NCBI GenBank assembly: GCA_964016885.1
Contig: OZ024740.1
Span: 153,202,001 to 153,266,000, forward strand
From: Eledone cirrhosa
Lineage: Eukaryota
Length of the DNA stretch: 64,000 bases
Direction: 5' to 3'
The position numbers and the translations under genes are program-made. Positions 4,540-29,670 of this stretch are shown in pieces (the first letter of the stretch is position 1; every line of letters starts with the position of its first letter). A model generated the notes under the pieces. It saw nothing but the letters and a program-made list of their open reading frames with translations, made no database searches and was not told the DNA's origin.

Positions 4540-5004
4540 GTGATGTATCTCGCGAGTGAATCGAGACCTGTTACTGATTTTGGTGTCCCCACTGCCGATG
4601 TGAATGAGCAACGCTGCACTTGTGAATTGGGTCTTGATGTTGCAGGCAGTTCATATACTTACAATGATGCGGTCCCACAAGCTTGTTCACATTCCTGTGC
4701 TAATAATCTAGATGGGCGTATTAAATTGGATGTGAAAGCAGCTTACCGGATGCGGAATCGGGAGAAGTTGAGACAAAAACAGGCCGATTATAGAGCTGTG
4801 AATTTTGCTAAATTAACACAAAAACAGGCCAAGTATAGATGTTCAAAACGGTATGAGTTGGCAAACAAGCAGGCCAAGTATAGATCTGCAAATTCAGCTA
4901 TTATATCTCAAAAGCAAGCCGAGCGTAGAGCTTCTAAACGTACCGAGTTGGCTAAAGAGCAGACCAAGTACAGATCTGCAAATATCTTATTGCACAAACA
5001 ATAA
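4540..5004 (+). other. ORF with ~15-aa basic repeats (KQAKYRS-like), probably a transposon-derived fragment
   Basis: Five imperfect KQAxYR-type repeats at a 45-nt period. No other recognisable domain or splice context. Confidence 0.3.
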
Positions 5005-5214
5005 TTCTGCACAAATGTTGCTCCATTATTAGATCTAATGTTGCAACGATACAGTTAAATGTTGTCTGTGTATTTTAAAAAAGATTTGCTTATAATCTTT
5101 TCAAATTTCATTACGCCAATAATTCAAGCTCAAATTGACATTATCTAAAAAATTGTACAAACAGCGGTGGATTAGCAGTAGTGAACAGATAAATCAGTCA
5201 ATTTATTAAGATTG

Positions 5215-5872
5215 ACTTGGCATCAATCAACAAGACCTTCATTAGCTGCCCTCCAGCCATCTATTTAAAGCTGTATACATATATGGTACGAATACACTTG
5301 GAGTTCGCGTCATCAGTCTGGAACCCCTATCTTGCTCAGAACATTGACCTCCTGGAAACTGTTCAGAGACATGCAACCAAGCGCATACCCTCCATCAGAC
5401 ACCTACCATACCCTGAATATTTTGCTTCCCTCTGGCAATGGACTTGGTAAACACCCACAAAGTTATTAACCATCCGACCAACAACAACAACCCCGAACAC
5501 CTTTTTGATCTCCATGTGTCTAACACGTGGACATGCCTACAAAGTCAGAAAACAACACAGCTCCCATGACTTTAGGAAATATTTCTTCATGCTCAGAGTT
5601 GCTGAAGGATGGAACAAACTTCCTGCATCAGTTGTTAGCTGATGACACACTGCATCCTTTAAAACCATCATACATTCCGAAATACACCAAAACTACACCT
5701 GATGTCCCCCTTCCATACACATGCACATATGTGTATATCATGACTCATGCACTGTTCTTTTTTCATGACGTTTTTATATTACCCTATGTATTATATATGC
5801 ACTTTTGATGAGTTGTAGTGCACTTCAGCATTGTACACAATATTTTCATTATTATTATCATTATTATTATTA
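5215..5872 (+). mobile_element. CR1/L2-type LINE 3' fragment
   Basis: LYTYMVRIHLEFASSVWNPYLAQNIDLLETVQRHATKRIP matches the CR1-like post-RT region. Ends in an (ATT)n tail. Confidence 0.75.
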
Positions 5873-6339
5873 CACATTGATCCATTTTGCACTAACTCTG
5901 CATCAAGCACCCTCACCTAAATATTAACCAATCAAGGATCCAATACAGCTATCTGTTGGATGAGTATTGTTTAGTGCCAAAAACGAAACCAATCAGTTTA
6001 GCAGAAAGTTTCCAGACAAGAAACACGCATATTTTGCTATCCTCAAACACGTTTACACATGGCATGAAATATAACTAATCCGAGATGGCTAGGTTTCATC
6101 TTCTAACTGGATATACGAAATCCATTATGTCTTGACAACAACATGAGGTAACATTATGTTATTCACAGACACACTTTGTACACTGTTCCATATCAGAATG
6201 TATTTCCTTCGTCACATTCACAAACAGTATTGAAAATATGTTCTTCGGCAAATAAAAATGTTTTGTTCATAATATTTCAACTAGCGATTGCTCTACTTCA
6301 CGCACGACCACCATAAATTAATGACCAGCTCAACACAAG

Positions 6340-8049: not shown

Positions 8050-8300
8050 ACAGTTATGACTGTTAAAACCTAAATGTGTTTGCTATAACGTGTTAACATT
8101 TAAAAATTCTTTCATAGGAATATATCTAAAGCATAAACCATAAAAAACTCTTTCATATATATATATATATATATATGTACAAAACTTAATCTGTTATTTT
8201 AATGAATGTTAGCTCTATGGTTCTTATATATTTGATATATATTTATCCTTATCGAGCCCTCTTTCGATTTTCGTGTTCACATTTATCATTATTATTATTA

Positions 8301-8396
8301 TTTTACACGCAGAAATGCCCATTTGTACCGTCCTGTATTGTCCTGTACTGTACTTAATGTCTACTTTATGTAAACCCTTGTGGTTAATAAAGAAAA

Positions 8397-8427
<31 letters not shown>
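8301..8427 (+). mobile_element. Severely 5'-truncated Tx1-type element (3' UTR stub plus TTA tail)
   Basis: ttttacacgcagaaatgcccatttgtac...cccttgtggttaataaagaaa matches the 3' ends of copies 1 and 2 (near 14183 and 23547). (ATT)n on both sides. Confidence 0.85.
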
Positions 8428-8635
8428 GGCGACTTACGTAGTAAATCGTATCATCGTGAGCTCCGCAAAGGTTTGTTATTTCCGTTTGTTAAAAATTGCC
8501 ATTTATGGAAAATTTTATTATTAACTATATATAAGCGCACATACATTGTTTTCCGAAAAGGACACCCCAAAAGATTGGGGCCTTGTGCCCAAAATTTAAA
8601 CTTTTATGATTATCAAAAAATTTCTTTGAAAAAAA

Positions 8636-10582
8636 ATGGCTAATTCACCACTGCACCAAGCAGCTGAGAGCCTTCCTCACAAATTAACACCTCACACCGA
8701 CACCACCATTGTAAATGATTATACGTCTGCCAACACAAACAATTTAAGCACTAGCAATATTTTAAATTTGTCTCAGGCAGACATTCATTTCCCGCCATTA
8801 CCAATGACTGCAGGTGTTAAAGCCGCCACCGCCACCACCACCACCACCACCGCGACAACAGAAACAAAAGGAAAAAATAAATCAACTCGTAATGTCGAAA
8901 TATTTTCAACCAAAATGGACTCTCCCAAACCGAACTTCACTGACGTCACCACCACCACAACTGAAACTAAAATTAATAATAACAAAAATAACGATAGCAA
9001 CAACAACAACAACAATGACATTAAAAAAAACCACCCTGAGTTTTGCCAGAGTAGCAAAACAGTGCGAAGCATTTACGGTAACTCAGGAGGAATTAGAAAA
9101 TGCCAAACAAATGGTAAAGAAAGATGGGTACAGGGTCAGCCTCACCCCCACCTAATAAAATGGAGCATCGGCGCCTATGCACCGTGTCGTATCGAACAAT
9201 AAATGTAAAATCGCACCGAGTGGAACGGGCATCCGAGTCCCAAATCCAAAAAGCTTTGGGACATGTGTGGGCAAGAAAAACCCACATCAGACGTGGGCAG
9301 AAGTATGGAACCGTGGACGTGTTCTTTGAAACACCAGAGGAGGCTAGAGAACACTCCATGGCCCCATTAAGAAGTGACGACTTCACACTCGTCCCAAGCT
9401 ATTGTGGCCAGAGACTCGTAAAGATCAGAGTGACCCACGTTCCACCGGCCATCGAAATTCCCTGGCTAATAGCGGCCGTCCTCGCCGGCATCGAAGCCAA
9501 CACAAAGATAATAGCAATAGCAAAAGAAAAGCAGGAGAACTGGTCCGGATCTGGGATGGAGCTCCTGATCCAAGCGGACCAAAAAAGCATTGAGGAGATC
9601 CCAGAGGTAATAGACCTCACTGACGGCAGCCACCTCACCGTAATTGTCGAGGGCAGAAGGCCTAGGTGTGTCGTTTGTGGTGAAGGAACCCACCTAAGGG
9701 CTTTCTGCCCTCAGGCTAAAAGGTTGAGGCCACCTCTCCTATCCACCCCAGTGACACAACCATCAACACCACCAGTAGCAGAGATGGCAGCAAAAACTGT
9801 AGCAGCAACAACAGAAGCAACTATAACAGCAACAACCCCAGCAACAGTAGCGAAACCAACACCACCACCATCCAACGCTTCAGAACTAGCACCAGCGCCT
9901 ACACCATCCACCACGCCACAACCAAAACTAACGCCTGTGGAGGATTTTCCACTCCCCGGCCTATCACAACTGGAGACAGATTGCGACGACGAGGAGTGGG
10001 AAACGGTATCAGGAAAAAAAAAAAGAAACCAAAAAAGAAAAAAATTCTCTTCCTTCCCCCTCCAAAAACAAAATACAGAGGGAAACAAATAAATTAACAA
10101 ACAAAAAAGTTAGGACAGATATGCCACCATCCACACCAGCATCACCAACGCCATCAACCCAAACACCAACACCATCACCATCATTAACCCCAACACCACC
10201 ATCACCTACACCACAAAAGTCACCAAAATACGAAACAGAAACAAACCCACAACAAACGCAAACAAAACAAAACAACCAAAACGATACACACTACACAGCA
10301 TTAAATTTGAACAACAAGAAATTATTACACTACATCCAACACAACACCAGCATCACAGAAAAAGACTACACAACAACCCAAAAATTCACACCACCTCCAC
10401 ACATACAAATCACTCGCATCACACAGAAAACGTACATGACACTAACACAAAAATTCCCCAAAGACATCGGAGACTTCCGACAAGCACTCTCCAGGAGGAT
10501 TTATAAGGACATCCTTCCTGAGGAGGCCACAAGCAGTGAAAAGGATGGAAAAACCGTCCTTCCCCTACGAGAAGTAAGGTAA
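8636..10582 (+). pseudogene. Tx1 ORF1 (CCHC zinc knuckle), frameshifted
   Basis: RCVVCGEGTHLRAFC knuckle and Pro/Thr-rich linkers, split over several frames. Confidence 0.75.
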
Positions 10583-10616
10583 GTGGTCTTTCCCATCTTT
10601 TCCACTCCTTTTCAAC

Positions 10617-13600
10617 ATGACCTCACTCAGAATAGGCAGCATAAATGCGCGTGGCTTGGGGTCGTCATGGAAGCAGGGCCACCTGCTCAACGACCTCAGG
10701 TCACTAAACATAGATGTAGTGGCCATCAGCGAGACCAGAATCTCCGAAGCACGGGCCTTCGCACCGATCTTCGGCGGCTACGATGTGTACGCATCTCCCA
10801 GCCGTCCGGGATCGGGGGGATGAGTTGCTGTGCTTTTTCGGAGAGGTTTGGATCTTGCCATACGGGCCATCTTCCTGGACCCAGAAGGTAAGTTGGTGGT
10901 GCTGGACGTGACCAGCGGAGACGGGCAAGCTTTCAGGTTAGTGGCCGTCTATGCCCCGACAGGAGCAGGGCGGCCTGATTTCTTCCCGCGTCTAGAGACC
11001 TTTCTTGGAACGTCCCGCTTTTTAGTGTTAGTGGGCGACTGGAACGGGATCTTAGATGCACGCTGGGATTATGTGGGATTAGTGGATAGGGAAGGAGGGT
11101 GCAAGAGTCTCACCAACCTGCTCAGGCGTTTTGAACTGTCTGACAGGTACCGAATGGATTTCCCGAATGTACCAGTGTGGACTTGGACAAATCGCTTAGG
11201 GTCATCCAGATCATATCTAGATAGAGTATTTTGTAGGGAAATAGATAGGTCTAGTATAGGCTGTCCACAATTCAAGATAGTCAGCTACACGGACCACAAA
11301 TTCGTGATCTGTGTGCTTGACTTAGATAGGCTTCATAGACGAGGACTCGGCTACTGGAAGCTAAACGCGTCCTTACCAGCGCGCAAGGCCTGCAGAGACC
11401 GGATTAGCGAACTAGTTAAGCGGGCGTTGACGGGGGCCATCGTCAACAACAAGTGGTGGTTTGCTCTGAAAAGAGCAATTAGAATAGAGTCCATTAGGTT
11501 TAGTAAGGCTTTAGCAATAGAGAAAAATAGAGCAGAGGGAGAATTAGTTAGAAAATTAGACGAGGCGCTTAGCAAAGGCATCGCGACCGACGTACTTGCG
11601 GCGAAATTGGCCCTTGACTAATTCTTCAATGCAAAGCACGAAGGCTGCGTTGTCAGAGCTAGGGTGCGTGCTCTCAGACACGAGGGGACGAAAGCCGTTC
11701 AATGGGCCCGAGTGGCAGAGGCGCGTCGTGGCAACAAAGCCACGATCTGGTATTTGGTGGACCACGACGGGCGCATGCTACTCGATCCCGGGCAAATGTG
11801 TGAAGCTTTTCAGCGACACTTCGCTCAACTGTTCGGGGGCAGTGGCGGACCGGATCGAGGGATGGACTTTAGTGTCTACCTCGACGGACTGCCGCGGCTT
11901 TCGGCCACTGAGGCGGAGTGTTGCGAAAAGTCGATAACAACCGCTGAAGTACGGGAGGCAATGACTAGCTGCACAAGGGGTAAATCGCCTGGTTTGGATG
12001 GTCTGCCCTATGAACTTTACGTACAGATACCAGACTTGTTCGGAGGCCTCTTGGCGGACGTCTACTGCAGCTGGCAACAGAACGGGAGAATTCCCAGCTC
12101 TGTGAGCCGAGGAGCGGTGGCGCTGCTGAGAAAGGATCCGAACAAAGGGGATAACATAGATAATTTTAGGCCCATAACTCTGCTAAACACAGAGTTCAAG
12201 ATTTTGGCCAATGTGCTAGCAAAGAGGTTGGCGCTTGTCGTTGGTGGTCTGGTGGGAGAGGCACAGACATGCGCCATTCCCGACAGATCCATCCACGACA
12301 ACCTCCACCTCATGCGATACATCGTAGAGAGGGTAGCTAGGGAACCTGGCACGGGTGGGTCTTTGATCAATTTAGATCAGTCGAAAGCCTTCGATAGGGT
12401 CGACCTTCGTTACCTAGCGGCAATCCTGAGGGCGGCTGGTTTGGGCCCGTCTTCAGAGGCTGGATCGCTGCCATGCACAGCGACATCTGCTCTGTAGTGA
12501 GAGTGAACGGTCACCTTTCGAAACCGTTCAACATCATGCGCTCGGTCCGCCAAGGATGTCCCCTCTCGTCCCTCTTGTACGTATTGACTCTCGAGCCATT
12601 ACTGCACAAACTGGAGACGTTGAGGGGGACCCCGCGCGAACTAGGGTGCGGAAGATCCGTGTCAGCATATGCGGACGATGTCACCGTAGTGGTGTCGAAC
12701 GCCAAACACATCGAGGCGATCGGTACTCCACTAAGAGAATACGAAGCGGTGACAGGAGCAATGATCAACCAGGAAAAGTCAGTGGGCCTGCAGCTCGGCA
12801 CCTGGAGAGGCAGGTCCATGCCGTCCAACAGCGTCGTCGGGCGCTGGACGGACGGACCGGTTAAATTGCTAGGGGTCTGGTTCGGTCCGGACCTCCAGAC
12901 GGACAAAAACTGGGGCGAGGTGACGAGCAGGGTGGCTTCTCTCACCCAAAAATGGGCGGAGTGGAAGCTATCCCTGAAAGGTCGAGCGGAGATGGCTAAC
13001 GCGTACATCGCGTCCGTCATCTACTACCGCCTGACTGTCGTACCTTGTCCTAAGCCCCGCCTGACTGCGCTGGAGCGTTTGCTCTTTCGCTTCTTGTGGA
13101 AGGGACGCGCTCCGATGGTCAGGCGGTCCATCTGCTGTCAACACCCGCTATGTGGAGGGCTGGGCATGCCGTGGCTGATGATGCGCAGACACGCGCTGAG
13201 GCTGCGACATCTCCACCTCTTCCTCGACGGTGATCAGGTGTGGTCGCCGTTTGCTAGACGCGTCTTTCCCCAGCTCGTCTCCTTGACAGAGCTGCAGTCC
13301 TGGGTCAAGCGAAGACCGAGAGGGAGCGCTTGGAGACTGGAATGTCTTCAGGCGCTCACAGCCCTCGACCAATCGGGCAATGTGATCGGTGGAAACTCCA
13401 CCTTGGCGTTCTATAGAGGATTAGTGGAGAGGAAGAGCGACGACGTACTTGGAGAAACTCTAGGCGTCGACGAAAATCAACTAGCCAATCTCTTCGTACG
13501 GTCTTTCGGGCCGGGGCCTATGGACAATTTCCAGAAATCCCTGGCCTGGCAGTGCTACCAGGGAGCTTTGCCAGTTCGGGATAAACTCTACAGGCATGGA

Positions 13601-14035
13601 GGTGCCGTCAGCCGGGCATGTCCGAGATGCGCGCATGGCGACGAAACCGTCCTGCACGCACTCGTCCAGTGTCCGAGTATTGCTGACTTGTGGGTTTATG
13701 TCGAACACCTGCTGTCACGTGTAGGACGGATCCGGCTATCAGTTGAGTCCATCGTGAGGATTGCCCCGCCTTCTTCCTTTAGCCGGAAAGGGCAGGCAGT
13801 TTTTATCTGTCTGGTGGCCATGGCGAAAGAGATAGTATGGTGGACACGTTTGAAAGGGCTGAAGACGAGCACTTACCTCTTCGGTGATGCCCTGATTAAC
13901 TTTTTCAAATTTCATTTGAAAAGGAAAATCAGGGTAGAGAGGGAAGTGCTCTCTTCCCACCATTTTGTTGAAAGATGGGTGAGAGAAGCAAGTATGGCCC
14001 GAGTGAATGGGCCTACTCTGAGTATATGTCTGTAA
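10617..14035 (+). pseudogene. Tx1 ORF2: AP endonuclease, reverse transcriptase, C-terminal zinc finger (disrupted)
   Basis: SINARGL, SETR, GDWN, YLDR, TDH (APE); FRPITLLN, DQSKAFDRV, QGCPLS, YADD (RT); CPRC..ETVLHALVQC. Stops at 10821 and 11619 and a frameshift near 12440. Confidence 0.9.
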
Positions 14036-14277
14036 ATTAAAGGTGGAAAACTGGGAGAGGGCACTTGCCCTGGTGGTCAGGGTCACTGTGGTCTTTTAAT
14101 GGGCTTTCTCCACAAATGTCCCTCGGATGTCTCCCCCCTATTGGGGAATTTTTCATTGTTATTTTATTACATCCTCTGTTTTTTTTACACGCAGAAATGC
14201 CCATTTGTACCGTCCTGTATTGTCCTGCACTGTCCTTAATGTCTACTTTATGTAAACCCTTGTGGTTAATAAAGAAA

Positions 14278-14332
<55 letters not shown>

Positions 14333-14333
<1 letters not shown>

Positions 14334-17300
14334 TGAGTCTTAGTCATTGATGTTATTTAACTGGATAGTTTGTTGAAATAAATATCAAGCCGCTACCTGC
14401 AGCGTCAGATATTCAGGACGTATCGGAGGGTTCTTGCTTTTCCCTAGCAAGCTTGCCTTTTGAAGTGTTCCAAAAAGCGGGGCTGGACTAATTTTCTTTA
14501 ACCATCCTTGGAAACTCTTTGAGAGAGTACCAAGTGCGCCTATGACAATCGGGACGACTCTGACTTCATGGCAGTTCCAAATCCTTTTTACCTCCCACTT
14601 TAAGTTCTGGTATCGGTTAATTTTCTCCCTCTCCTTTTCTTGCATTCTCGTGTCAAATGGGCAGGCTACATCTACAATCAGGCACGATCTTTTTTCCTTG
14701 TCCAAAACCACCAGGTCAGGCCTATTGTGTTCCAGTTTCTTGTCCGTCTGTATCCTAAAATCCCATAGCACCTTCAGCTGATCATTTTCTATCACCGACT
14801 CTGGCTTATGCTCATACCACTTCTCAGTATGTGGTAAATTGTTTACTTTTCATAGGTGCCAGTGGATCACCCTGCCCATCACATCATGTCTCCAGCCTTA
14901 TGGTGAGTCTGGGCTAGGTGTTTACACTCGGATACAATGTGAGCCACAGTCTACTCTCTCTCTCCACAAATCCTACACAGTGGGCTAGCCTCCTCCTTGT
15001 AAATATGGTGTTTCACCCACTTCGTTCTGATGGCCTGCTCTTGCGCAGCCATTAGCATTCCTTCTGTAGCCTTTTTAACCAGTTCCATGTCTGTGGATCT
15101 CTAAATTCAGTTTTCTCAAAGAAGGTACTATGAAGGGATTTTTCATGAAGGTTGCTCTTCCTCCTTGTTATTTCCTCCTTGGACATCCCCTGGTCTATTG
15201 TCCTCTTCTTCAGTACAATTCCGAGCATTGGCCCCCTACTGTCAGTCACGTATTTGTGCAGGTTGTTTTTCTTCATCTGAACACAGTCCGCTATGCTGAT
15301 AAGACGTCTTCCACCTTCAAATCTCTTTAAGTAGAGTCTATCGACATCACTCCTCTTGTGGAACATGTTGTAGATAGTCAATAGCTTTCTAATCTTCCTA
15401 TCCATTTCTTTTTGTTTAGCAACATTCCATTTCAGAATTCCCGCACTGTACCTAATAATAGACACAGCTCGGGAATTTACTGCACTTATGACATTCCTAC
15501 TATTTAGATGTGATTTTCATACGCTACTTACTCTCCTAATGTACTCAGATCTTATCAATTCCTTCATTTTTTTTTGTTCTTGATGTCATCTGCCTCCAGA
15601 ACACCTAAATATTTGTATCCTTCTTCAGTGTCAATTTCCTTTATCATCTCACCTGTTGGTACCTGGATTCCGTTGCTTCTGCTCAATTTACCCCCTCTTC
15701 ATCACTAGGACTCCACACTTATTAATACCAAATTGCATACATATATCATTGCTGAAAATACGGACAGTGTCAACAAGCACATCCAACTCCTTCTCACTCT
15801 TCCAAAAGAGTTTAAGATCGTCCATGAAGAGGAGGTGGATGATGGTAAGCTCTCCCTTTCCCAACTTGTATCCTGCTCTCACTTTTCGCAGTATAATGGT
15901 CAGGGGTATCAGGGCAAGGACAAACAACAGAAGGGAAAACTATCTTCCTGGAAGATACCTCTCTTGATCTTCACGCCCCTCCCCCCCAAGGATTCTCCAC
16001 CCGATGTTAACTCTGTTTCCCAGGACTTCAAACTTTTGCTCACCAACCGTCTGATGTTATCTGCCACCTTGAAGATCTCTAGGCTTTTGGTTATCCAAGA
16101 ATGAGGTACCATGTCGAATGCCTTTTTGTAATCTATCCATCCCATGGCAAGACCAGTGTGTCTCCTCTTGCAATTCCTCATTATCATCTTATCAATAAGT
16201 AACTGGTATTTTGTACCACGTGACTTCTTTCGGCATCCTTTCTGTTCGTCCGGTAACAAATTGTTTATGTGGAGGTGATGGTAGATTTCCTCAGACACAA
16301 TGCTTGTTAACAGTTTCCACATTACGGACAGACATGTGATAGGTCTATAGTTGGTAACATCATTACCCTTGATTCGGTCTTTCATTACCAGAACTGTGGT
16401 ACCTTTTGTCAACCACTCTGGTACCTCACCTGACATCAAGCAGTCATTGAACATGGTTGTCAGTTTCGGGTGGAGGGATGTTATATTTTTAATCCAATAC
16501 CCCTGCACACCACCTGGGCCTGGTGATTTCCAGTTTGTTAGTTTTTTGGCCTGCCATTTAAGAGTTTCAACTGTGATACTCAAATCAGTTTGTTGGTGTG
16601 CCTGTTCACTAATCTCCTTTTGTACTGTCTCAATCCACACTGCCTGATCATTATGTTTAACATCCTGCTCCCATATTCCTCTCCAGAATGTCTTAGTTTG
16701 TTCCGCCTCAGGGATCAAATCGTTGCCTCTTTCTTTCCCTTCAAGCTGTCCAAACAACATTTTCTGTTTGTTGTCAAACATGCGGTTCTGTCTATACTGA
16801 CTGACTCTGCTCTCATACCGCCTAATCTTTGCACTCTTTGCTACAATGCGTTGCTTCAGTTCCTCTATGATGATATTTAGCTTTTTCCTCCTAGTTTTAT
16901 ACTTTATTTCCAGTCTATTTTTAGTGTCTATGTTTTGTAGTGTCCCATTCAGTAGGGATCAAACTTTCCAATGTCATTTCTCATTTCCCTGATTTGACCA
17001 TTCAGTCGTTTCTTCCACCAAGGTTCTGATCTTTCTTGTTTGTTTTTTCTCTCGCTTTTATGCCAAGTAATTTCCTCACCGCATTTGCTGTTGCTTTGAG
17101 GATATTGTTGCATTGGTGAAGGCTCCTCGCCTCAAGGTATGGGATGACTTTGTTTACCTTAGCTGTTGTTTGTTTTAACTTTTTCCTGTCTACAAATCTT
17201 AGGTTCATAGGTTTCCCATTATCATTGTTCATTTCATCTACCACTAAGTTTAGGATATCAACCAAATCTTGTCCTAGCCCGTCAGCATTCATCTCCTCAA

Positions 17301-17845
17301 TGGCAGTATCTCTGTTCCAGGTATTATTTATTTCAGCATTCAGATCATTGTCTGCTTCGGATGGTTCCTCCGTTCTCTCAACCTCTTCACCTTCATTTCC
17401 CACTGGCTCGTTTGCCTGGCATACTCCACTCTCCATTTCCAACTTAATCTCTCTGCTCAGTTCCTCCAGTTCCAGCTCGCTTATCCACCCATTAGTTCTT
17501 ATTACCCGAGCCTGCCCGGCCAATTTTTGTTCATCTAATTTAAATATACCAATCTCGTTCCAGATATTATGCATCCGTTTCCTATAGCCTTTTTCCTTGG
17601 GGTTACTCTTCAGGTAACATTGCATAACAGTTCTCTTCAATTCTTTCGTCCAGTTGGTTCTGGTCCCTTTCCTTCTTCTTCTTCCTCTAACACCAGCAGT
17701 ATTTGGATGACAGCCAGGCAGGTCCCTGCTGCTGGGCCAGGGAGCAGCTGCTGGGTGAGAGTCTGTCACATAACGTTCCAGTCTCCTCTTCACTGTTATT
17801 CGAACTGTTTAGGTTCGACATTTAAACACTCATATAAACACTTAT
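14333..17845 (-). mobile_element. Dong/R4-clade non-LTR retrotransposon (RT plus restriction-like endonuclease), near full length, disrupted
   Basis: NYRPITCL, WIDYKKAFDMVPHSW, GIFQ, HLLFMDDLKL (RT); HNRPDLVV..IVDVACP..KINRY (PD-D/ExK). The 3' end abuts the (TAA)n shared with the Tx1 copy 1 tail. Confidence 0.85.
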
Positions 17846-18123
17846 ATTATTATTACCACTAACGTACTGGGTAATTGCTGGCCTTGTGCCAATAGTAGAA
17901 ACACTTATTATTATTATTATTATTGGTTATCATTACAAAACGGCGGTAACTACTAATTTTTTAATGCGTTATCGAAAGTTCTAATAATATATTTTTACAT
18001 CGGTGTATAGTTAAAGAACCCCTCTGTCAAATGAGGTGGTTTTTTTAACTGTATCTTGCGCCCTTGATAGCTAAATTTGCTTTTATTTACAATCATAACC
18101 CCAAAATAAAAAAATAAAAAAAC

Positions 18124-19937
18124 ATGGCGGACAAAGAAAATTGTCCACAGAGAGGAACAGAGAGTTGTTTAGAGGGTGGAACAGCCATTTCCACCCAATC
18201 ACAAGGCAAAGTAAAAAACAAGAGAAACAGCAGCAACAGCGACAGCGACAGTGATAATGATATCAGCAGCAGCTGTCACTGGAACTGTAGTAGCAGTAGT
18301 GAAAATTATAACGAAAAATTTCCTGCGTTACAGAAATTAAACACCACTACCACCCCAATAACAACAATAACAACACCAACAACCACAAAGAACCCAAAGA
18401 ACAACAACTATAACAGCAGCAACACAGAGGAAAAAGAAACAAACAAAAACACCGGCGACGGCAACAAAGACAAAACTAGTGACGTGTCAACACAAATCAA
18501 AACAAACACATCTTTCGCTAAAGTGACAAACAATTTTGAACAAATACACATCACTAACGAAGAGATAAAACAAACCAAGGTCTTGGTAAAAAAAAACCGG
18601 ACACAGAGTAAGTCTCACCCGCCCAGCTGAGATAATAAGAAACAAGCTTTTGTGTTCGGTCAGTTATCGCACGATCGGATCAAAATCCAGGCGAGTTGAA
18701 CGGGCAACGGAGTCACAGATCCAAAGAGCTATGGGTGCCGTCTGGGTACAGAAAACATATATAGCCCGGGGATCGAGATATGACACTGTGGATATGCTCT
18801 TCGCTACCCCAGAGGAAGCCAGAGCACACTCCATTGCACCACTCCGCAGCGACGAAATCACAATGATGCCCACATATTGCGGCCAGAGAGTCGGGAGGAT
18901 TCGAGTAGACCAGGTTCCACCCTCAGTGGAGATGGCGTGGTTGACGGCAGCCGTCCTCGCTGACGTTGAAGATTTAACAACCATACTCAACATCATACGA
19001 ATAAGACAGGAAAATTGGATAGGGTCGGAGATGGAGCTAATCATCCAAGCAAATCACGAAAGCGTTGAGGCCATCCCCGATATAATAGACCTGAACGACG
19101 GCAGCCATCTACCCGTGACTGTCGAAGGTAGGCGCCCAAGGTGTCATGGATGCGGTGACAAGACGCACCTTAAGGCATTCTGCCCCAAAATTACCAAAAC
19201 AGGCACGCGCCCACCCCTTCTCCCCACGCCGTACCCCGCAACTGGAGCAGACAAACAAACAAAGAACACAGTGGCAGAAGAGAAATCACCATCCCCAACA
19301 ACAAAAACACCATCTCTTCCACCACCCACAAAACCAATGGAAAGCATACCCCTTCCTGATATAGCTGATATAGCCAAATCGGATAAGGAGTGCGATGAGG
19401 CCGAAGAGTGGAGAACTATTCCAACAAAAAAGGAAGACCCCCTCCCCCCAAAGAGGAAGAAAAAACCTTAAAAAAAAAGAAAATGAAAACTACCCCACCT
19501 CCTCCACCATCAACAGCCACACCCCACAACCACCTACACCATCACCACCAGCACCACCCTTACCATCTACCCCATCGTCACCTCCAACAACACGACAGCA
19601 AACACAGAAAACACCAACACCCAAACAGCAGACACAATACACAGCCATAGACACAGACAACACAAAGCTTTTAAATTACATTCAACACCACACCACCATC
19701 ACAGAAACAAACTACGTAGAAACCACCAAAATTGCCCCCCCCCCACACACACACATAAAAATAATAGAAATTACACCAAAAAATTACATAACATTAAAAA
19801 AAATGTTCCCCACATCAATTGGAGACTACCGAGGGAGCAACACCAAAAGAATATTCACGGATATTCTTGTGGAGAAACCCACCAATGGCCGGAGGGATGG
19901 ATCACCCACCCCCTTCCTAAAGAAGAGTCACAGGTAA
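18124..19937 (+). pseudogene. Tx1 ORF1, frameshifted
   Basis: RCHGCGDKTHLKAFC knuckle. Homologous to, but clearly diverged from, copy 1 ORF1. Confidence 0.75.
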
Positions 19938-19986
19938 TTTTTTGTACCTCTCCCCTCTCACTTGTTTTCCTCCTATCCTAGCCAAC

Positions 19987-22900
19987 ATGGCTACTCTCAG
20001 AATAGGTAGCATAAATATACGTGGCCTGGGGTCGTCTTGAAAGCAGGGGCACCTGCTGAACGATCTCAGGTCGCTAAACATAGATGTGGTGACCATCAGC
20101 GAGACCAGAATCTCCGAAGCACGGGCCTTCGCACCGATCTTCGGCGGCTACGATGTATACGCATCTCCCAGCCGTCCTGGATCGGGGGGATGAGTTGCTG
20201 TGCTTTTTCGGAGAGGTTTGGATCTCGCCATACGGGAGATCTTTCTGGACCCAGAAGGTAAGTTGGTGGTGCTGGATGTGACCAGCGGAGACGGGAAAGC
20301 TTTCAGGCTTGTGGCCGTCTATGCCCCGACAGGAGCAGGGCGGCCTGATTTCTTCCGGCGTCTGGAGACCTTTCTTGGAACGTCCCGCTGTTTAGTGTTA
20401 GTGGGCGACTGGAGCGGGATCTTAGATGCACGCTGGGACTGTGTGGGATTAGCGGATAGGGGTGGAGGGTGCAAGAGCCTCACCAACCTGCTCAGGCGTT
20501 TTGAACTGTCTGACAGGTACCGATTGGATTTCCCGAATGTGCCAATGTGGACTTGGACAAATCGCATAGGGTCATCCAGATCATATCTAGATAGAGTATT
20601 TTGTAGAGAAATAGATAGGTCTAGCATAGGCTGTCCACAATTCAAGATAGTCAGCTACACGGACCACAAATTCGTGATCTGTGTACTTGACTTAGATAGG
20701 CTTCATAGACGAGGACCCGGCTACTGGAAACTAAACGCGTCCTTACCAGCGCGCAAGGCCTACAGAGACCGGATTAGCTAACTAGCTAAGCGCGCGTTGA
20801 CGGGAGCCATCGTCAACAACAAGTGGTGGTTTGCTCTGAAAAGAGGAATTAGAATAGAGTCCATTAGGTTTAGTAAGGCTTTAGCAATAGAGAAAAATAG
20901 AGCAGAGGGAGATCTAGTTAGAAAATTAGATGAGGCGCTTAGCAAAGACATCGCAACCGACGTACTTGCGGCGAAATTGGCCCTTGACCAATTCTTCAAT
21001 GCAAAGCACGAAGGCTGCGTTGTCAGAGCTAGGGTGCGTGCTCTCAGACACGAGGGGACGAAAGCCGTTCAATGGGCCCGAGTGGCGGAGGCGCGTCGTG
21101 GCAACAAAGCCACGATCCGGTCTTTAGTGGACCACGACGGGCGCATGCTACTCGATCCCGGGCAAATGTGTAAAGCTTTTCAGCGACACTTCGCTCAGCT
21201 GTTCGGGGGCAGCGGCGGGCCGGATCGAGGGATGGACTTTAGTGTCTACCTCGACGGACTGCCGCGGCTCTCGGCCACTGAGGCGGAGTGTTGCGAAAAG
21301 CCGATAACAGCAGCTGAAGTACGGGAGGCAATGACTAGCTGCACAAGGGGTAAATCGCCTAGTTTGGATGGTCTGCCCTATGAACTTTACGTACAGATGC
21401 CAGACTTGTTCGGAGGCCTCTTGGCGGACGTCTACTGCAACTGGCAACAGAACGGGAGAATTCCCAGTTCTGTGAGCCCAGGAGCGGTGGCGCTGCTGAC
21501 AAAGGATCCGAACAAGGGGTTTACATAGATAATTTCAGGCCCATAACTCTTCTAAACACAGAGTTCAAGATTTTGGCCAAGGTGCTAGCAAAGAGGTTGG
21601 CGCTTGTCGTTGGTAGTCTGGTAGGAGAGGCGCAGACATGCGCCATTCCCGACAGATCCATCCACGACAACCTCCACCTCATGCGATACATCGTGGAGCA
21701 GGTAGCTAGGGAACCTGGCACGGGTGGGTCCTTGATCAATTTAAATCAGTCGAAAGCTTTCGATAGGGTCGACCATCGTTATCTGGCGGCTGGCTTTGGG
21801 CCCGTCTTCAGAGGCTGGATCGCTGCCATTCACAGCGACATCTGCTCTGTGGTGAGAGTGATCGGTCACCTTTCGGAACCGTTGAACATTATGGGCTCGG
21901 TCCGCCAAGGATGTCCCCTCTCGTCCCTCTTGTACGTATTGACTCTCGAGCCATTACTGCACAAACTGGAGACGTTGAGGGGGACCCCGCGCGAACTAGG
22001 GTGCGGAAGATCCGTGTCAGCATATGCGGACGATGTTACCGTAGTGGTGTCGAACGCCAAACACATCGAGGCGATCGGCACTACACTAAGAGAATACGAA
22101 GCGGTGGCAGGAGCAATGATCAACCAGGAAAAGTGAGTGGGCCTGCAGCTCGGCACCTGGAGAGGCAGGTCCATGCCGTCCAACAGCGTCGTCGGGCGCT
22201 GGACGGACGGACCGGTTAAATTGCTAGGGGTCTGGTTCGGTCCGGACCTCCAGACGGACAAAAACTGGGACGAGGTGACGAGCAGGGTGGCTTCTCTCAC
22301 CCAGAAATGGGCGCAGAGGAAGCTATCCCTAAAAGGTCGAGCGGAGGTGGCTAACGCGTACATCGCGTCCGTCATCTACTGCCGCCTGACCGTCGTGCCT
22401 TGTCCTAAGCCTCGCCTGACTGCGCTGGAGCGTTTGCTCTTTCGCTTTTTGTGGAAGGGACGCGCTCCGATGGTCAGGCGGTCCATCTGCTGTCAACACT
22501 CGCTATGTGGAGGGCTGGCCATGCCGTGGCTAATGATGCGCAGACACGCGCTCAGGCTACGACATCTCCACCTCTTCCTCGACGGTGATCAGGTGTGGTT
22601 GCCGTTTGCTAGACGCGTCTTTCCACAGCTCATCCCCTTGACGGAGCTGCAGTCCTGGGTCAAGCGAAGACCGAGAGGGAGCGCTTGGAGACTGGAATGT
22701 CTTCAGACGTTCACAGCCCTCGACCAATCGGGTAATGTGATCGGTGGAAACACCACCTTGGCGTTCTATAGAGGATTAGTGGAGGGGAAGAGCGACGACG
22801 TACTTGGGGAAACTCTAGGCGTCGACGAAAATCAACTAGCCAATCTCTATGGAAGAACTTTCGGGCCGGGGCCTATGGACAATTTCCAGAAATCCCTGGC

Positions 22901-23390
22901 CTGGCAGTGCTACCGAGGAGCTTTTCCAGTTCGGGATAAAGTCTACAGGCATGGAGGTGCCGTCAGCCGGGCATGTCCGAGATGCGTGCAGGGCGACGAA
23001 ACCGTCCTGTATGCACTCGTCCAGTGTCCGAGCATTGCTGACTTGTGGGTTTATGTCGAACAGCTGCTGTCGCGTGTAGAACGGATCCGACTATCAGCTG
23101 AGTCCATCGTGAGGATTGCCCCGCCCTCTTCCTTTAACCGGGAAGGGCAGGCAGTTTTTATCTGTCTGGTGGCCATGGCGAAAGAGATAGTATGGTGGAC
23201 GCGTCTGAAAGGGCTGAAGACGAGCACTTACCTCTTCGGTGATGCCCTGATTAACTTTTTCCAATTTCATTTGAAAAGGAAAATCAGGGTAGAGAGGGAG
23301 GTGCTCTCTTCCCAGCTTTTTGTTGAAAGATGGGTGAGAGAAGCAAGAATGGCCCGAGTGAATAGACCTACTCTGAGTATATGCCTGTAA
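19987..23390 (+). pseudogene. Tx1 ORF2 (APE-RT-zinc finger), disrupted
   Basis: Same motifs as copy 1, with several stops and frameshifts. Confidence 0.9.
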
Positions 23391-23874
23391 ATTGAAGGCG
23401 GAAAACTGGGAGAGGACAATTGCCCTGGTGGTCAGGGTCACCGTGGCATTTTTTTAATGGGCTTTCTCCACGATGCCCCTCGGAAGTTTCCCCCGTATTG
23501 GGGAATTTTTCATTGTTATTTATTTGTTTCATCCTCTGTCTTCGTTTTTTACACGCAGAAATGCCCATTTGTACTGTCCTGTATTGTCCTGTACTGTCCT
23601 TAATGTCTACTTTATGTAAACCCTTGTGGTTAATAAAGAAAGCATTATTATTATTATTATTATTATTATAATTATAATTATTATTATTGGTCTAATCGGA
23701 CGTATTTTGCTCGCTCTCAGTAAGTGGCTTTATTTGCCTGTTAAAATTATTTGTTGTTAAATACTTCTTGTTGTGTAAGGGATATAAGCCCTTAGACTTT
23801 GCCCTGTGAAGGCGAAAGTATAATATTTGGGCCTTTTGGCACAAATATTTGAACTTTTACGGAGAAAAAAAAAC

Positions 23875-25866
23875 ATGGCTGAGCCACGTCCCCCAGCGAT
23901 ATGCCTGCTGTCGTGCCACAACAACGTACAAGTTGAGAGGAGCGCTACAGCGAAATTAACACAAATTGATAACACAAACACCACCACAAACAATGTAAAC
24001 AAAGACACCAATGATAGCAATGAGAACTCTAATTTTGAAAAAAATGACAGTAACAGCGACAACGAAAATACAGATAACAAAAAAAAAAAATAACAAATGC
24101 AGCAACAATATCAACACCACTAACATGAAAACAAATAGCGACAACACCAACAGCAACAATACCAACTGCACCGAGAACAACGACGGTGGCAACAAAGACA
24201 ACAATGATAACAGCGACAGTGATAACAACAGCACCAACAAGAGCAACGACAACGACAACAACACCCCCAACGAAAACAAGAAGAACACTTTCGCAGCGGC
24301 AGCAGCAAAAAAGAGGCCATGCTTCAACATGGACCTCTCAAACAAAAATGAAAAGTTGGCCTAGGCATGGAAGCTCATCAAGCAAGAGCAAACCTGGGCC
24401 AAATTAACTGTCCCGGTAGAAGCTATTGAGGCAGTGGAGCGCAGAACGGTGCATTATAGATGCATCTCAGCACAAACCAAAAGGGCAGCTTTAATCCCAC
24501 AAGAAGATGTCGAAGTCGCGCTGAGGTGCATCAGAGAAGACACCGAATACATAGAGAGAGGCAGACAGTACGGTACCATCTCGGTGTTATTCAAGTCAGA
24601 AGCCCTCGCTATGAAACACGCTATGACTCCTTGCAAAACCAGCAAGGTCATAATGTACCCCTCCCACATGGGAAAAAGAACGACCCGTCTCCGCATTCCC
24701 AGAATCCCACCAGGACTTGACATGTGGTGGCTTCTGGGATGTGTGATTGTGGAGGGGACGGATACCGTCCCTATAGAAGTGACCAGCACGGTCAGAGAGG
24801 ACTGGTCCGGGGATGACCTGGAGATCCTTCTCCAGATCAGGCCCGAGAATGTGAAGACAATCCCGGACCACATCCGCCTTCAGAATGGGACGGTCATTCA
24901 CATTATGACCGAAGGCAAAAAGCCGCAGTGTTTTGTTTGTGAGGAAAAACCCATTTGCGAGCCTTCTGCCCTCAACTGCTGAAAGAGGCAAGGGGTCGAA
25001 AGGCTCCACTGCTGCCGACGCCGGGGTGAGGACCACAACCAACACCAGCACCGGCAAAACCACCAACAACAACACCAATAGAAAGACCACCACCAACATT
25101 GACCACCCAGGGGGGAAACGAAGAAAGCTGTCAAATCCCTCCCCCCCCCCAAAAAAAAATACACACACCAATAAAACCATAAACATACATACAGACACAC
25201 TTACAGACACAGACCCCTCATCTATCAGTAGTGAAGATGAGGGAAAACCCAAATCCCCCAAAATACAAAAAAGGAAACACAAAAAGAAAAAAAAACTCAA
25301 CAAAGCACAAAATCACCCACAATAAAAAAACGCAGACACCACCCACGCAAACATCTCTCCAATAACACCAACATCAACACCACCATCACCATCACCAGAA
25401 TCCCCCAAACGCAAACAACCTAAACAGACGCAAGAACAAATATACACACAAACATCTGAAACCTCAGACACCGCACTCACAACAAACACAGACAACCGAA
25501 ACAACACCACCAAAACCATCACCACCACAGCCACGCAAACAAATAAAATCACACCAACAAAACATACAAAACTTTGTGCTCGTCAGGAGGGCCAACAAGG
25601 AACTGATGGCCCTCGTAGCACGAAGTGAAAATATACAAAAAGAGGGGGAAATTTTTAAATCGAGCACATTTCGCGTGCCGGAAGATTTGGTTCTGGTGCG
25701 AATGTCAATCGATTTATACAAAGAAATACGAGACAGCTTTCCTCAGAACGTGGGAACCCCGAACGTAAATCCAACTTCAAGACTTTTAAAGGGGTTCCCA
25801 AAAGAAACCCCACCAACTATGGTGGTCGAACAACCCGACCTTCACAAGAGCTCGGAAGGCAAGTAA
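23875..25866 (+). pseudogene. Tx1 ORF1, frameshifted
   Basis: Asn/Asp-rich N-terminus, YIERGRQYGTI region homologous to the other ORF1s, QCFVC knuckle broken by a frameshift. Confidence 0.7.
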
Positions 25867-25898
25867 ACCTTTCCTCTCTCTCTTTTTAACCTGCCAAC

Positions 25899-28800
25899 AT
25901 GGCCGTATTAAGAGTAGGATGTTTAAATGTTCGAGGCCTGGGATCGTCCTGGAAGCAGGGTCACCAGCTCAATGACCTCAGGTATCTAGAAATGGATGTA
26001 ATTGCCGTCAGCGAGACCAGGATTTCCGACACGCGCGCACTAGCCCCCATTTTCGACGACTATCAGATCTTTGCATCTGTTAGCCGGCCGGGAATAGGAG
26101 GCGGGGTGGCAGTGCTGTTTAGGAAAGGCCTGGATCTCGAGGTAAGGTCGATATTCCGGGACCCGGAACAATAACGAAGGTGGTGCCTTTAGACTGGTGG
26201 CCGTCTATGCTCCTACTGGGGCAGGACAGCCGGACTTCTTTAGACGCCTGGAAGCCTTTCTGGGCACGTCTCGCCCTTTACTCTTAGCGGGGGACTGGAA
26301 TGGCATCTTAGACGCACGTTGGGACTGTGTGGGAGTATCCGATAGGAGCAGGGGGTGCAAAAGCCCCAAGAACCTGATCAGCCAGCTCCAACTGTCTGAC
26401 AGGTACCGACTAGATTTCCCTAATGCGCCAGTGTGGACCTGGGCTAACCGCATAGGGTCATCTAGATCGTATATAGACAGGATATTCATTAGGAAAATAG
26501 ACAGAAATAGTGTAAGCTGTCCACGTTTTGAAACGGTCGCCTATTCAGATCACAAGTTTGTGATCTGTATGGTCGACCTAAATAAGACGCGTAGGTTAGG
26601 ACCTGGTTACTGGACGCTAAACATGTCATTTCCGGCACGTAAGGTTTACAGGGACCAGGTCAACAATTTAATTAAGAAAAAGTTGACAGGGGGAGTCGTC
26701 AACAATAGATGGTGGGGGGCTCTCAAAAGAGAGATTAGAGTAATGTCGATAGAGTTTAGCAAAGAAGTAGCGTTAGAGAAAAATAGAAAGGAGGGGGAGT
26801 TGGTAGATAAGTTAGACGAGGCTATTGGTAGTGGCATTGCAACTGACGTGCTAGCGGCGAGAATGGTATTAGACCATTTCTTCAATGCGAAACACGAAGA
26901 TTGCATTGTCAGAGCTAAGGCACGTGCTCTGAGAAACGAGGGAACCAAAGCTGTTCGATGGGCCCGCGTGGCAGAGGCGCAGCGTGGTAATAAAACCACG
27001 ATTCGGTCTTTGACGGACCGAGACGGGCACGAGCTGAGCGATTCCAAGAGAATGTGTGAGACCTTTCGCCAACATTTTGCTCGGTTGTTCGGGGTAAGTG
27101 GCGGGTCAGAGATGGTGGCGGATTTCAGTCCCTACCTCGATGGCTTGCCGCAACTCTCGACGGCTGACGCTGGGCGTTGCGAAAGGCCAATTACTTCAGC
27201 CGAGATTCAGGATGCCCTTGTCGGCTGCATGAGGCGCAAGTAAACCCGGTTTGGATGGTCTGCCCTACGAGCTTTACGTAAATATGCCAGACTTGTTCTC
27301 CAATCTCCTCGAAGTCCTCTACTGCAACTGGCAGCAAAACGGGAGTATTCCCAGTTCTGTGAGCCGGGGCGTAGTGACGCTGATAAGGAAAGACGAGAAC
27401 AAGAGGGACACATTAGACAATTTCAGGCCCATAACTCTGCTCAACACAGAGTTTAAGATTTTGGCCAGGGTGTTAGCGAAGAGGTTGGCGCTTGTCGTCG
27501 GGGATTTGGTTGGGGAGGCGCAAACTTGCGCAATCCCAACCAGGTCCATACACGACAACCTCCACCTCATGCGATACATCATAGATAGGGTAGGGTGTAA
27601 ACCTGGCTTCGGTGGGGCTCTGATCAATTTAGATCAATCGAAAGCATTCGATAGGGTCGACCATCGGTACCTGGAGGCTGTCCTCAAGGCGGCTGGCTTC
27701 GGCTCCGTCTTCAGAAGCTGGATCGCTGCAATGCACAGCGGCACCTGCTCGATGATCAAAATTAATGGCCACCTCTCGGAACCGTTTCAGGTCTCCCGAT
27801 CGGTCCGTCAAGAGTGCCCTCTCTCCTCCCTTCTGTACGTATTGACTCTCGAGCCTTTACTGCGGAAGCTGGAGCTGTTGCAGGGAATCCCGCTGTGTTG
27901 GCTTATGCGGACGACATCACCGTGATGGTGTCGGACACCTCAGAAATCGAGGTGGTCGGCAACTTATTGGAGGAATATGAAAGGTTGACGGGAGCAAAAC
28001 TTAACCCGGAAAAGTCGGTGGGCTTGCAACTCGGCACCTGGAGAGGCAAGTCCATGCCGTCCAACAGCGTCGTTAGGCGCTGGACGGACGGACCGGTAAA
28101 GTTGCTAGGGGTTTGGTTCGGGCCAGACCTCCAGGTGGATAAGAATTGGGACGAGGTGACGGGCAGGGTAGCCAGTCTCACCCAGAAATGAGCTGGGATG
28201 AAGCTATCACTGAAAGGTCGGGCGGAGGTGGCGAACGCGTACATCGCGTCCGTCATCTACTACCGTCTGACCGTCGTCCCTTGCCCTCGTTCGCGCCTCG
28301 CCATCTTGGAGCCGCTCCTCTTCAAATTCTTGTGGAGGGGTCAGGTTCCCCTGGTGAGGCGGTCCATCTGCTGCCAGCACCCTCTACGTGGAGGGCTGGG
28401 CATGCCGTGGCTAATGATCCGCAGGCACGCGCTGAGGCTGCGGCATCTCCAGATATTCTGCCTAAACGGTGAACAGGTGTGGTCGCCGTTTGTCAGACGG
28501 GCCTTTCCGCAGCTCGTTTCTTTGACTGAGCTGCAGTCCTGGGTCAAGAAGAGAGACCGAGTCTGGGTGACTGGCATGTGGAATGTTGCCAGGCACTCAC
28601 TGCCCTCTACCAGGCGGGCAATGCGGTCAGTGGAACTTCCACTCTCGAGTTCTATAGAGGATTAGTGGTGGGAAAGTGCGACGACGCACTCGGAGAGGCT
28701 CTGGGCATCAACGAAGTCGAACTAACCAGTCTGTACCGGAGGACTTTCGAGCCGGGGACGATGGATAATTTCCAAAATTCCCTCGCTTGGCAGTGCTACC

Positions 28801-29276
28801 GGGGGGAACTGCCGGTTCAAGATAAACTCGACAGGGACGGAAGTGCTGTCAGACGGACCTGCCCGAGATGCGCGCAGAGCGACGAAACTGTTCTGCACGC
28901 ACTCGTCCAGTGTCCGTGCATTACTGACTTGTGGAGTTATGGTGAAGAGCTGTTGTCGCGTGTAGAACGGATCCGGTTATCGGCCGAGTCCATAGTGAAG
29001 ATCGACCCGCCGCCTTCTTTTGGCCAGGAAGGGCAGGCAATTTTCCTCTGTCTGGTGGCACTAACGAAAGAGGTTATATGGTGGACGAGGTTGAAAGGAC
29101 TGAAGACAGACACTTTTCTCTTCGGCCAATCCCTCATCAACTTTTTCAAGTTTCACTTGGAAAGGAAGGTGAGGGTGGAGAGAGAAGTGCTGCCCCCCAG
29201 TACATTTGCTGAAAAGTGGGTGAATGTAGCGAGAATGGCCCGTGTGAGTGGGCCTACTCTGGTTATGCGGCTGTAG
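25899..29276 (+). pseudogene. Tx1 ORF2 (APE-RT-zinc finger), disrupted
   Basis: CLNVRGL, SETR, GDWN, YIDR, SDH; FRPITLLN, DQSKAFDRV, YADD; CPRC..HALVQC. Confidence 0.9.
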
Positions 29277-29596
29277 GTAGGTAAATTTGAGGAGGAGAGG
29301 GGGTGCCCTTCCAGGGTTCTCTCGAAGCGTCGGGTCGTTCAGGATTGGTGGGGTACCTGAGCGAACCCTGGGTGGTCATCCCCCCATATTGGGGAATTTT
29401 TTCTTGTAATTTTATTGTTACTTTGTTATTGTGATTCATATTGTTTACTCGATTTTTCTGTAAAACCCCACTGTCCCAGTCTTTTGTATTGTCCCCTATA
29501 TGTCGGCCCTTGTGGCCAATAAACGAAATTTTTATTATTATTATTAATATACTGGGTAATTGCTGGCCTTGTGCCTAAAATAGAAACAATTATTAT

Positions 29597-29670
<74 letters not shown>

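What the first reader, a model, noticed from the sequence alone, without database searches (positions are those of the whole stretch)
8288..29600. Tx1-type elements apparently targeting (TTA)n and stacking head-to-tail in each other's tails
All three long copies begin at ...ATTATT|GG (8428, 17925, 23689) and end in AATAAA..(TTA)n. Copy 1 follows the tail of a Tx1 stub, copy 2 a SINE TTA tail, and copy 3 the tail of copy 2. None sits in the much more abundant (TA)n or (CA)n tracts. Established: some Tx1 families are sequence specific, including Kibi (TC repeats) and Koshi (TTC repeats). Inference: a TTA-specific Tx1 lineage in which each insertion leaves a new target, building 20-kb arrays. I cannot confirm whether this lineage is already described.
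Basis: partly seen in the sequence, partly recalled or inferred. Interest (0 to 1): 0.75.

Follow-up and report, generated by a model that had tools for sequence, protein, structure and literature searches.

The report
LINEs homing to ATT repeats
This 21-kb stretch is a pile of broken jumping genes joined by short ATT repeats; across this genome the family's complete copies sit flush against ATT repeats, likely because its enzyme cuts there and each landing duplicates a piece of the repeat, a known habit with an apparently new repeat target.

Summary
Confirmed and genome-wide. Three APE/RT LINEs (8428, 17925, 23689; all broken) and a 100-bp stub each start after (ATT)n. Among genomic copies traced from the 3' end, 40 of 40 full-length and 25 of 41 truly 5'-truncated ones have (ATT)3 or more at the 5' junction (background 0.3-0.6%; RTE-like control 0 of 26). 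At imperfect sites four truncated copies show 13-18-bp target duplications that begin ATTAT/TTAT with no added tail, so the 3' repeat is mostly duplicated target. Spacers between stacked elements are all multiples of 3 (47 of 47, minimum 15). Corrections: the array is mixed (3.5 kb is an opposite-strand Dong/R4-like LINE, plus two SINE stubs); only 20 of 83 copies follow another copy's tail; Tx1 rather than L1 membership could not be tested against named references. Microsatellite-specific Tx1 (Kibi, Koshi) and TAA-specific Dong are published; nine searches found no ATT-specific Tx1, but Repbase and the key 2004 paper were not available. The scan has already noted this same guild at eight or more other places in this genome. 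New variant of a known kind; moderate interest.

The parts
8284..8302 (+). TTA run in front of the stub (5' junction of a truncated copy)
8300..8399 (+). 100-bp 5'-truncated stub, 3' end of subfamily A/B
   Evidence: matches c1 position 5753 onward
8398..8427 (+). (ATT)10 spacer
8428..14279 (+). Copy 1 (subfamily A): full-length LINE; ORF1 pieces with one CCHC knuckle (9118-10092), ORF2 APE-RT-zf (10617-14035) with 2 stops and 1 frameshift
14280..14333 (+). (ATT)18 between copy 1's tail and the facing tail of the Dong-like element
14334..17844 (-). Decayed near-full-length Dong/R4-like LINE (RT plus C-terminal RLE-type motifs), opposite strand, TAA at both ends
   Evidence: 37-38% identity to a second Dong-like protein P0002; name Dong/R4 rests on recalled motifs
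17864..17903 (+). 5'-truncated SINE stub (3' end only)
17905..17924 (+). ATT spacer in front of copy 2
17925..23643 (+). Copy 2 (subfamily B head on an A-type ORF2); ORF2 from 19987 with 4 stops and 1 frameshift
23644..23688 (+). (ATT)15 spacer, imperfect
23689..29531 (+). Copy 3 (subfamily C, about 75% to copies 1/2); ORF2 from 25899 in five frame pieces
29532..29601 (+). TTA run, second SINE stub (about 29548-29588) and TTA run, abutting (TA)34

Best explanation
The stretch is a mixed stack of dead retroelements in which an L1-group (likely Tx1-clade) LINE lineage lies flush against (ATT)n repeats, here and across the genome, likely because its APE endonuclease nicks the strand opposite Y^ATTATT. 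Shown: junction sequences, repeat phase, orientation, duplications. Inferred mechanism: the enzyme nicks the bottom strand at 5'-AATAAT/R-3', the freed AAT end primes reverse transcription on the RNA 3' end, and the second cut about 17-18 nt downstream gives a duplication of about six ATT units, which ends in ATT and so gives the fixed ATT|GG start. The element's own last base (C) plus the duplicated ATTATT rebuilds a perfect site at its 3' junction, so later copies land there in the same direction and stack. A Dong/R4-like LINE uses the same repeat on the other strand, and a 186-bp SINE with the same cut signature (partner LINE unproven) seeds and fills the same tracts.
For: 5'-anchored: 30 of 30 loci for head A (includes the window's copy; 30 of 40 listed places fetched) and 28 of 30 for head B by eye (misses L209, L215). 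96 of 96 distinct full-length heads of five types in the 310 loci then held have (ATT)3+ within 29 nt, 92 ending exactly ATT (overlaps the other counts). 3'-anchored, 110 loci traced: 40 of 40 full-length and 25 of 41 independent truncated copies against 0.6% (71 of 12116) and 0.3% (82 of 25986) of background positions and 0 of 26 resolved RTE-like junctions, 8 of which sit at (TA)4. Duplications at imperfect sites: L072 17, L090 18, L149 17, L147 13 bp, starting ATTAT/TTAT with 0-2 nt between element end and duplication. Tail-to-head spacers: 38 of 38 after a LINE tail and 9 of 9 after a SINE tail are multiples of 3, minimum 15 and 18. Polarity: 144 of 163 LINE tails are followed by ATT phase and none by AAT only; 48 of 63 Dong-like tails by AAT phase and none by ATT. 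SINE sites: Y at -1 in 16 of 17, then (A13/G3)T15 T16 A17 T15 T16. ORF2 = APE + RT + zf-RVT.
Against: 16 of 41 truncated copies fail the strict test; 4 have clear duplications and 5 a degenerate ATT junction, but 7 (L064, L074, L092, L122, L139, L142, L146) show neither. Three full-length copies (L091, L093, L140) have a pure ATT 5' flank but a short or TTC-type 3' flank, which a simple 17-18-bp duplication does not explain. Only 8 of 30 genome-wide SINE copies lie in strict TTA runs, and SINE/LINE tail similarity does not exceed shuffles (best 36, shuffle maximum 39). All samples are the best-scoring (young) hits of capped searches, not all copies. No enzyme assay; no empty-site comparison for the LINE.
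Confidence: 0.8

Rival explanations
1. Two-tier homing: the enzyme reads only a short ATTAT motif (as the SINE sites show), and the strict placement of full-length LINE copies comes from UUA repeats on the RNA itself, co-transcribed from flanking target at the 3' end and as a 5' leader that anneals to the second-cut strand.
For: Full-length 40 of 40 versus truncated 25 of 41 (Fisher p = 5e-6); L091, L093, L140 have pure 5' ATT without a matching duplication; SINE only 8 of 30 in strict runs. Compatible with the best explanation as an added layer.
Against: Most full-length copies have 15+ nt of ATT on the 3' side too, so a plain duplication suffices; truncated samples include older and secondarily deleted copies; no RNA data.
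Confidence: 0.3
2. TTA is only an element-borne tail and 5' leader; insertion is essentially random and arrays arise by recombination between copies.
For: 6 of 110 loci are internally recombined or rearranged; five different heads share one ORF2 type, showing exchange; one tandem duplication (L032) and one duplicated locus (L152/L158).
Against: Truncated copies have no 5' leader, yet 25 of 41 have the repeat at the junction; duplications begin ATTAT; flanks beyond the tract are diverse.
Confidence: 0.05
3. Insertion is broad and copies survive only in ATT-rich, gene-poor arrays (selection, not targeting).
For: Best hits to head A concentrate on the four largest contigs (29 of 40; those hold 54% of bases) against 11 of 40 for the RTE-like control.
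Against: Selection does not give single-base phase (92 of 96 ending ATT), fixed strand polarity or multiples-of-three spacers.
Confidence: 0.05
4. The element belongs to the L1 clade or an unnamed L1-group lineage rather than to Tx1 proper.
For: Its closest relatives (46-53% in RT) are unnamed; the quick tree leaves the backbone open and does not join it to the one Tx1-named row.
Against: RT region 39.5% identical to an alligator protein named 'transposon TX1 uncharacterized 149 kDa protein' (227 bits over 351 aa) versus 178 bits over 850 aa for human L1 ORF2p; ORF1 with a CCHC knuckle and no poly(A) tail fit Tx1 (recalled).
Confidence: 0.2

Closest known systems
Kibi (TC)n, Koshi (TTC)n and crocodilian Tx1 families in (TTCC)n/(TTTC)n (PMC4494074, passages and section 15; PMC3812793, passages)
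   Same: APE-type LINE of the L1/Tx1 group with microsatellite-specific insertion; far above the 20% flank threshold that PMC4494074 uses to call a family target specific.
   Different: Target is (ATT)n, AT-only rather than pyrimidine-rich; host is an invertebrate (likely an octopod, inferred from a 73% Argonauta hit); no phylogenetic link to Kibi/Koshi could be tested.
Dong (Bombyx), DongAg, DongBg: TAA-microsatellite-specific elements (PMC3812793, passages)
   Same: Same microsatellite. The opposite-strand element at 14334-17844 looks like a member: 13 of 21 truncated genomic copies start at (AAT)n.
   Different: Dong is R4-clade with a restriction-like endonuclease (recalled; PMC4640811 lists R4 among RLE clades, while PMC3812793 lists Dong under APE types); the element of this finding has an N-terminal APE and faces the other way.
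Tx1-Mar with SINEU (PMC4494074, passages)
   Same: A Tx1 group and SINEs share a target, the SINEs more loosely; tandem insertions sandwich a target duplication.
   Different: Target there is a Mariner DNA transposon; the SINE partnership here rests on cut signature only.
Human L1 ORF2p, TTTT/AA (PMC1950540, passages; PDB hits)
   Same: APE-RT-zinc finger layout; nick at a pyrimidine/purine step after a short AT-rich run; priming by short complementarity.
   Different: No poly(A) tail here; repeat phase and strand are fixed.

Membership tests
L1 group non-LTR retrotransposon | ORF2 with N-terminal APE, RT and C-terminal CCHC-type zinc finger | tested here: met
   P0001 (L102): PF03372, PF00078, PF13966 above cut-off; best PDB match human L1 ORF2p, E 1e-51
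L1 group non-LTR retrotransposon | Two ORFs, 5' truncations, target-site duplications | tested here: met
   ORF1 with CCHC knuckle; 43 truncated copies; duplications of 13-18 bp
Tx1 clade | RT phylogeny inside Tx1, apart from L1 | tested here: inconclusive
   Quick 49-row tree (careful search unfinished) has an open backbone and no named Kibi, Koshi, Keno, Tx1L or L1 row; similarity favours a Tx1-named alligator protein over human L1
Target-specific family (criterion of PMC4494074: over 20% of flanks of one type) | One sequence type in more than 20% of flanks | tested here: met
   40 of 40 full-length, 25 of 41 truncated
Target-specific family | Endonuclease nicks the target in vitro | not testable with these tools
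   no assay
Kibi / Koshi | Insertion into (TC)n or (TTC)n | tested here: not met
   flanks are (ATT)n; TTC-type 3' flank in only 2 of 110 loci (L093, L140)
Dong / R4 clade (for 14334-17844) | RT with C-terminal CCHC and PD..D..K restriction-like motifs, no APE | tested here: inconclusive
   motifs visible by eye (pattern recalled); no named Dong reference for a tree
Dong / R4 clade (for 14334-17844) | TAA repeats at both ends on its sense strand | tested here: met
   13 of 21 resolved 5' junctions; 48 of 63 tails
RTE-mobilised SINE (PMC6007223, abstract) | Duplication starts with T about 10 nt downstream of a T stretch | tested here: not met
   17 SINE sites start A/G and show no T run at -10

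The most novel reading that the evidence does not exclude
An octopod LINE lineage homes to ATT repeats in two tiers, a short enzyme motif plus UUA repeats on its own RNA, and with its SINE and an unrelated RLE element on the opposite strand forms a self-feeding guild that creates most of the genome's ATT microsatellites and its tens-of-kilobase arrays.
Probability: 0.3. Interest if true: 0.65.

Novelty: new variant of a known kind. Interest (0 to 1): 0.42.

Why it matters
It adds (ATT)n to the list of Tx1-group targets and shows an APE and an RLE element converging on one microsatellite from opposite strands. The junctions predict a testable cut site (5'-AATAAT/R-3', duplication about 17-18 bp), useful for work on how APE loops set specificity (PMC1950540, passages) and for annotating a genome in which L1-Tx1 and Dong-R4 families are reported as recently active in Octopus vulgaris without target analysis (PMC13282606, passages; 'target' does not occur in its main text). 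It does not overturn any principle: microsatellite-specific Tx1 and self-stacking at duplicated targets are published.

Tried and rejected
Control with a second ATT-tailed LINE fragment (5670-5847): uninformative, all 30 loci share the same flanks, so it is cargo of one larger young repeat, not independent insertions. All-versus-all junction calling for Dong ran into shared neighbours and was replaced by tracing against the window copy. SINE-LINE tail homology: not above shuffles. Named Tx1 references: whole-protein search gave no Tx1-named row, cluster look-up gave no useful names, Atlas gave only generic RT/APE clusters for the homologue P0004. Local gene conversion between copies 1 and 2 (shared stop): sliding identity shows c2 no closer to c1 than other copies, left open. 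Rows dropped before the truncated count: 21 longer than the locus (19 not extended, plus the window's copies 1 and 3), 7 reclassified full-length, 6 rearranged, the window's stub and one duplicate locus. Duplication candidates L032 (tandem duplication), L121 (30 bp, ambiguous), L129 and L171 (slippage) were not counted as clear. 'Tx1-:body' neighbour labels are low-complexity artefacts; run5 = 0 for heads of type C2 there is an offset artefact. The Fisher line is labelled 26/41 but was run on the hand-entered 25 and 16. Papers not held: PMID 12949131, PMC85248, PMC309301; supplement and Fig. 3 labels of PMC4494074 not visible and could list an ATT/TAA-targeting Tx1 family.

Full report
1. Observation. 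Searches show the three starts ATTATT|GG at 8428, 17925 and 23689 and the three ends AATAAA..GAAA followed by (ATT)n. The order is: TTA run, 100-bp stub (8300-8399), (ATT)10, copy 1, (ATT)18, an opposite-strand element (14334-~17844), TTA, SINE stub, ATT run, copy 2, (ATT)15, copy 3, TTA, SINE stub, TTA, (TA)34. The window has 46 (TA)6+ and 16 (CA)6+ runs but 9 (TTA)4+ runs, 7 of them in this array. Pfam finds APE, RT and zf-RVT pieces in copy 1. All three ORF2s are broken. Copies 1 and 2 are 91% alike over ORF2 but have different heads and ORF1; copy 3 is about 75% alike.

2. Genome-wide test from the 5' end. The window lies in G000 (3.0 Gb). Queries held no TTA. Head A: 30 of 30 fetched loci (of 40 listed; 1752 first-look candidates) have (ATT)n flush upstream, with diverse sequence beyond. 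Head B: 28 of 30 by eye. A pattern scan of all 310 loci then held found 96 distinct full-length heads of five types; 96 of 96 have (ATT)3+ within 29 nt and 92 end exactly in ATT.

3. The decisive test, truncated copies. A 5' repeat on full-length copies could be part of the element, so I searched with three 3' ends, extended 60 places upstream and traced 110 loci. Criterion: 9+ nt of TTA period within 20 nt upstream of the junction. 21 loci ran past the fetched DNA; 33 were full-length (all positive); 56 looked truncated. Mapping showed 7 of these to be full-length (internal duplication, a SINE inside ORF1, or a fourth head; all positive, giving 40 of 40) and 6 to be rearranged and unresolved. 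Of 43 true truncations 27 are positive; without the window's stub and one duplicated locus, 25 of 41. Background is 0.6% in the rest of the window and 0.3% in control loci. An RTE-like family from the same window gives 0 of 26, with 8 at (TA)4. Of the 16 misses, 4 have clear duplications, 5 a degenerate ATT junction, 7 nothing.

4. Cut geometry. At imperfect sites the flanks reveal duplications: L072 17 bp, L090 18, L149 17 (one mismatch), L147 13, each starting ATTAT or TTAT and following the element's last bases with 0-2 nt between. So no (TTA)n tail is added beyond the target. A 186-bp SINE in the same tracts and direction gives more sites: in a separate genome-wide sample 22 of 30 got a duplication call, mostly 13-19 bp, and 17 informative sites give Y^(A/G)TTATT. 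In a pure tract an 18-bp duplication is six ATT units; spacers between an upstream tail and a full-length head are 15, 18 (five times), 21 (six times) and longer multiples of 3 in 38 of 38 cases, and 18-54 in 9 of 9 after a SINE tail. Inference: nick at 5'-AATAAT/R-3' on the bottom strand, second cut about 17-18 nt away, later slippage lengthening the tracts. The element ends in C before ATTATT, so its own 3' junction is again a perfect site.

5. Arrays are mixed. Among 83 resolved 5' ends, the neighbour beyond the tract is a LINE tail on the same strand in 20, a SINE tail in 15, a Dong-like body on the other strand in 11, other in 34, and 3 internal hits (a second Dong-like family was not yet in the library). 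In an independent sample of 29 Dong-like 3' ends, 7 face a LINE tail and 8 a SINE tail. Tails of the LINE are followed by ATT phase in 144 of 163 cases and never by AAT alone; Dong-like tails by AAT phase in 48 of 63 and never by ATT.

6. What remains unexplained. Full-length copies are stricter than truncated ones (40 of 40 versus 25 of 41, p = 5e-6) and than the SINE (8 of 30). L091, L093 and L140 have pure 5' ATT without the duplication their 3' flank predicts. A co-transcribed UUA leader would explain this; so would recombination between copies or secondary deletion in the truncated class. The SINE's partner is unproven.

7. Family. An open 1107-aa ORF2 frame from a genomic copy (P0001) has APE, RT and zf-RVT. 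Its nearest named relative is an Argonauta protein (73% in RT), then unnamed proteins at 46-53%, then vertebrate and echinoderm proteins at 38-40%, one named 'transposon TX1 uncharacterized 149 kDa protein'. Human L1 ORF2p scores lower. The quick tree groups P0001, P0003 and the Argonauta row (SH-aLRT 100) with the unnamed group (99) but leaves the backbone open. Tx1 is likely, not shown. The host is likely an octopod (inference).

8. Literature. Nine searches. Seen: PMC4494074 (passages, section 15): Kibi (TC)n, Koshi (TTC)n, crocodilian (TTCC)n/(TTTC)n, Tx1-Mar/SINEU with tandem insertions around a duplication. PMC3812793 (passages): TAA is listed for Dong only. PMC4640811, PMC8869645, PMC1950540 (passages): background on target-specific clades and APE specificity. 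PMC13282606 and PMC9115989 (passages): Dong-R4 and L1-Tx1 families in octopus, no target analysis in the passages. PMC6007223 (abstract, outline): RTE signature, not met by the SINE. No ATT-specific Tx1 was found, but Repbase, Kojima and Fujiwara 2004 and the Fig. 3 labels and supplement of PMC4494074 could not be seen.

9. Earlier scan notes. One search, made after I had recorded the same reading, lists eight notes on other DNA of this genome with the same guild (478 notes fit the words). They are not independent evidence and I reuse no numbers from them; they do show that this is a recurrent, genome-wide feature and not special to this window.

10. Verdict. Real, well above chance, mechanism largely inferable. 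New variant of a known kind; interest 0.42.

Noticed in passing
window 10821-10823 and about 20188-20190: Copies 1 and 2 share the same premature stop in the APE domain; only 1 of 22 other copies (in L116) has it. Sliding identity shows no clear conversion tract.
   Followed up: partly
L104, L112, L114 and heads A, B, C, C2: At least five different 5'UTR/ORF1 heads; A, B and D sit on a near-identical ORF2, i.e. head swapping as in mammalian L1.
   Followed up: partly
L096, L118: Two LINE copies carry the SINE at the same ORF1 position with an 18-20-bp duplication starting ATTAA; other copies give the empty site.
   Followed up: partly
L152, L158: Short copy with a 5' inversion (twin-priming-like) inside a duplicated multi-stub stack.
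   Followed up: no
window about 4400-5900 (L311-L340): A very young composite repeat (99% identity, identical flanks in 30 of 30 loci) carrying a decayed LINE 3' end with an ATT tail; probably a larger mobile element.
   Followed up: partly
window 51560-53806: RTE-like LINE family; 3' ends run into AGAT/(TA)n and 8 of 26 5' junctions sit at (TA)4.
   Followed up: partly
window about 46300-47560 and 8200-8283: Penelope-like RT/GIY-YIG remnant; a related terminal repeat lies just upstream of the stub, and L052 is inserted at the same spot of that repeat.
   Followed up: no
window 58710-60323 and 62244-63613, minus strand: Two more decayed Dong-like pieces outside the array.
   Followed up: no
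G000 contigs C1-C4: Best hits to head A are enriched on the four largest contigs (29 of 40) relative to the RTE-like control (11 of 40).
   Followed up: partly
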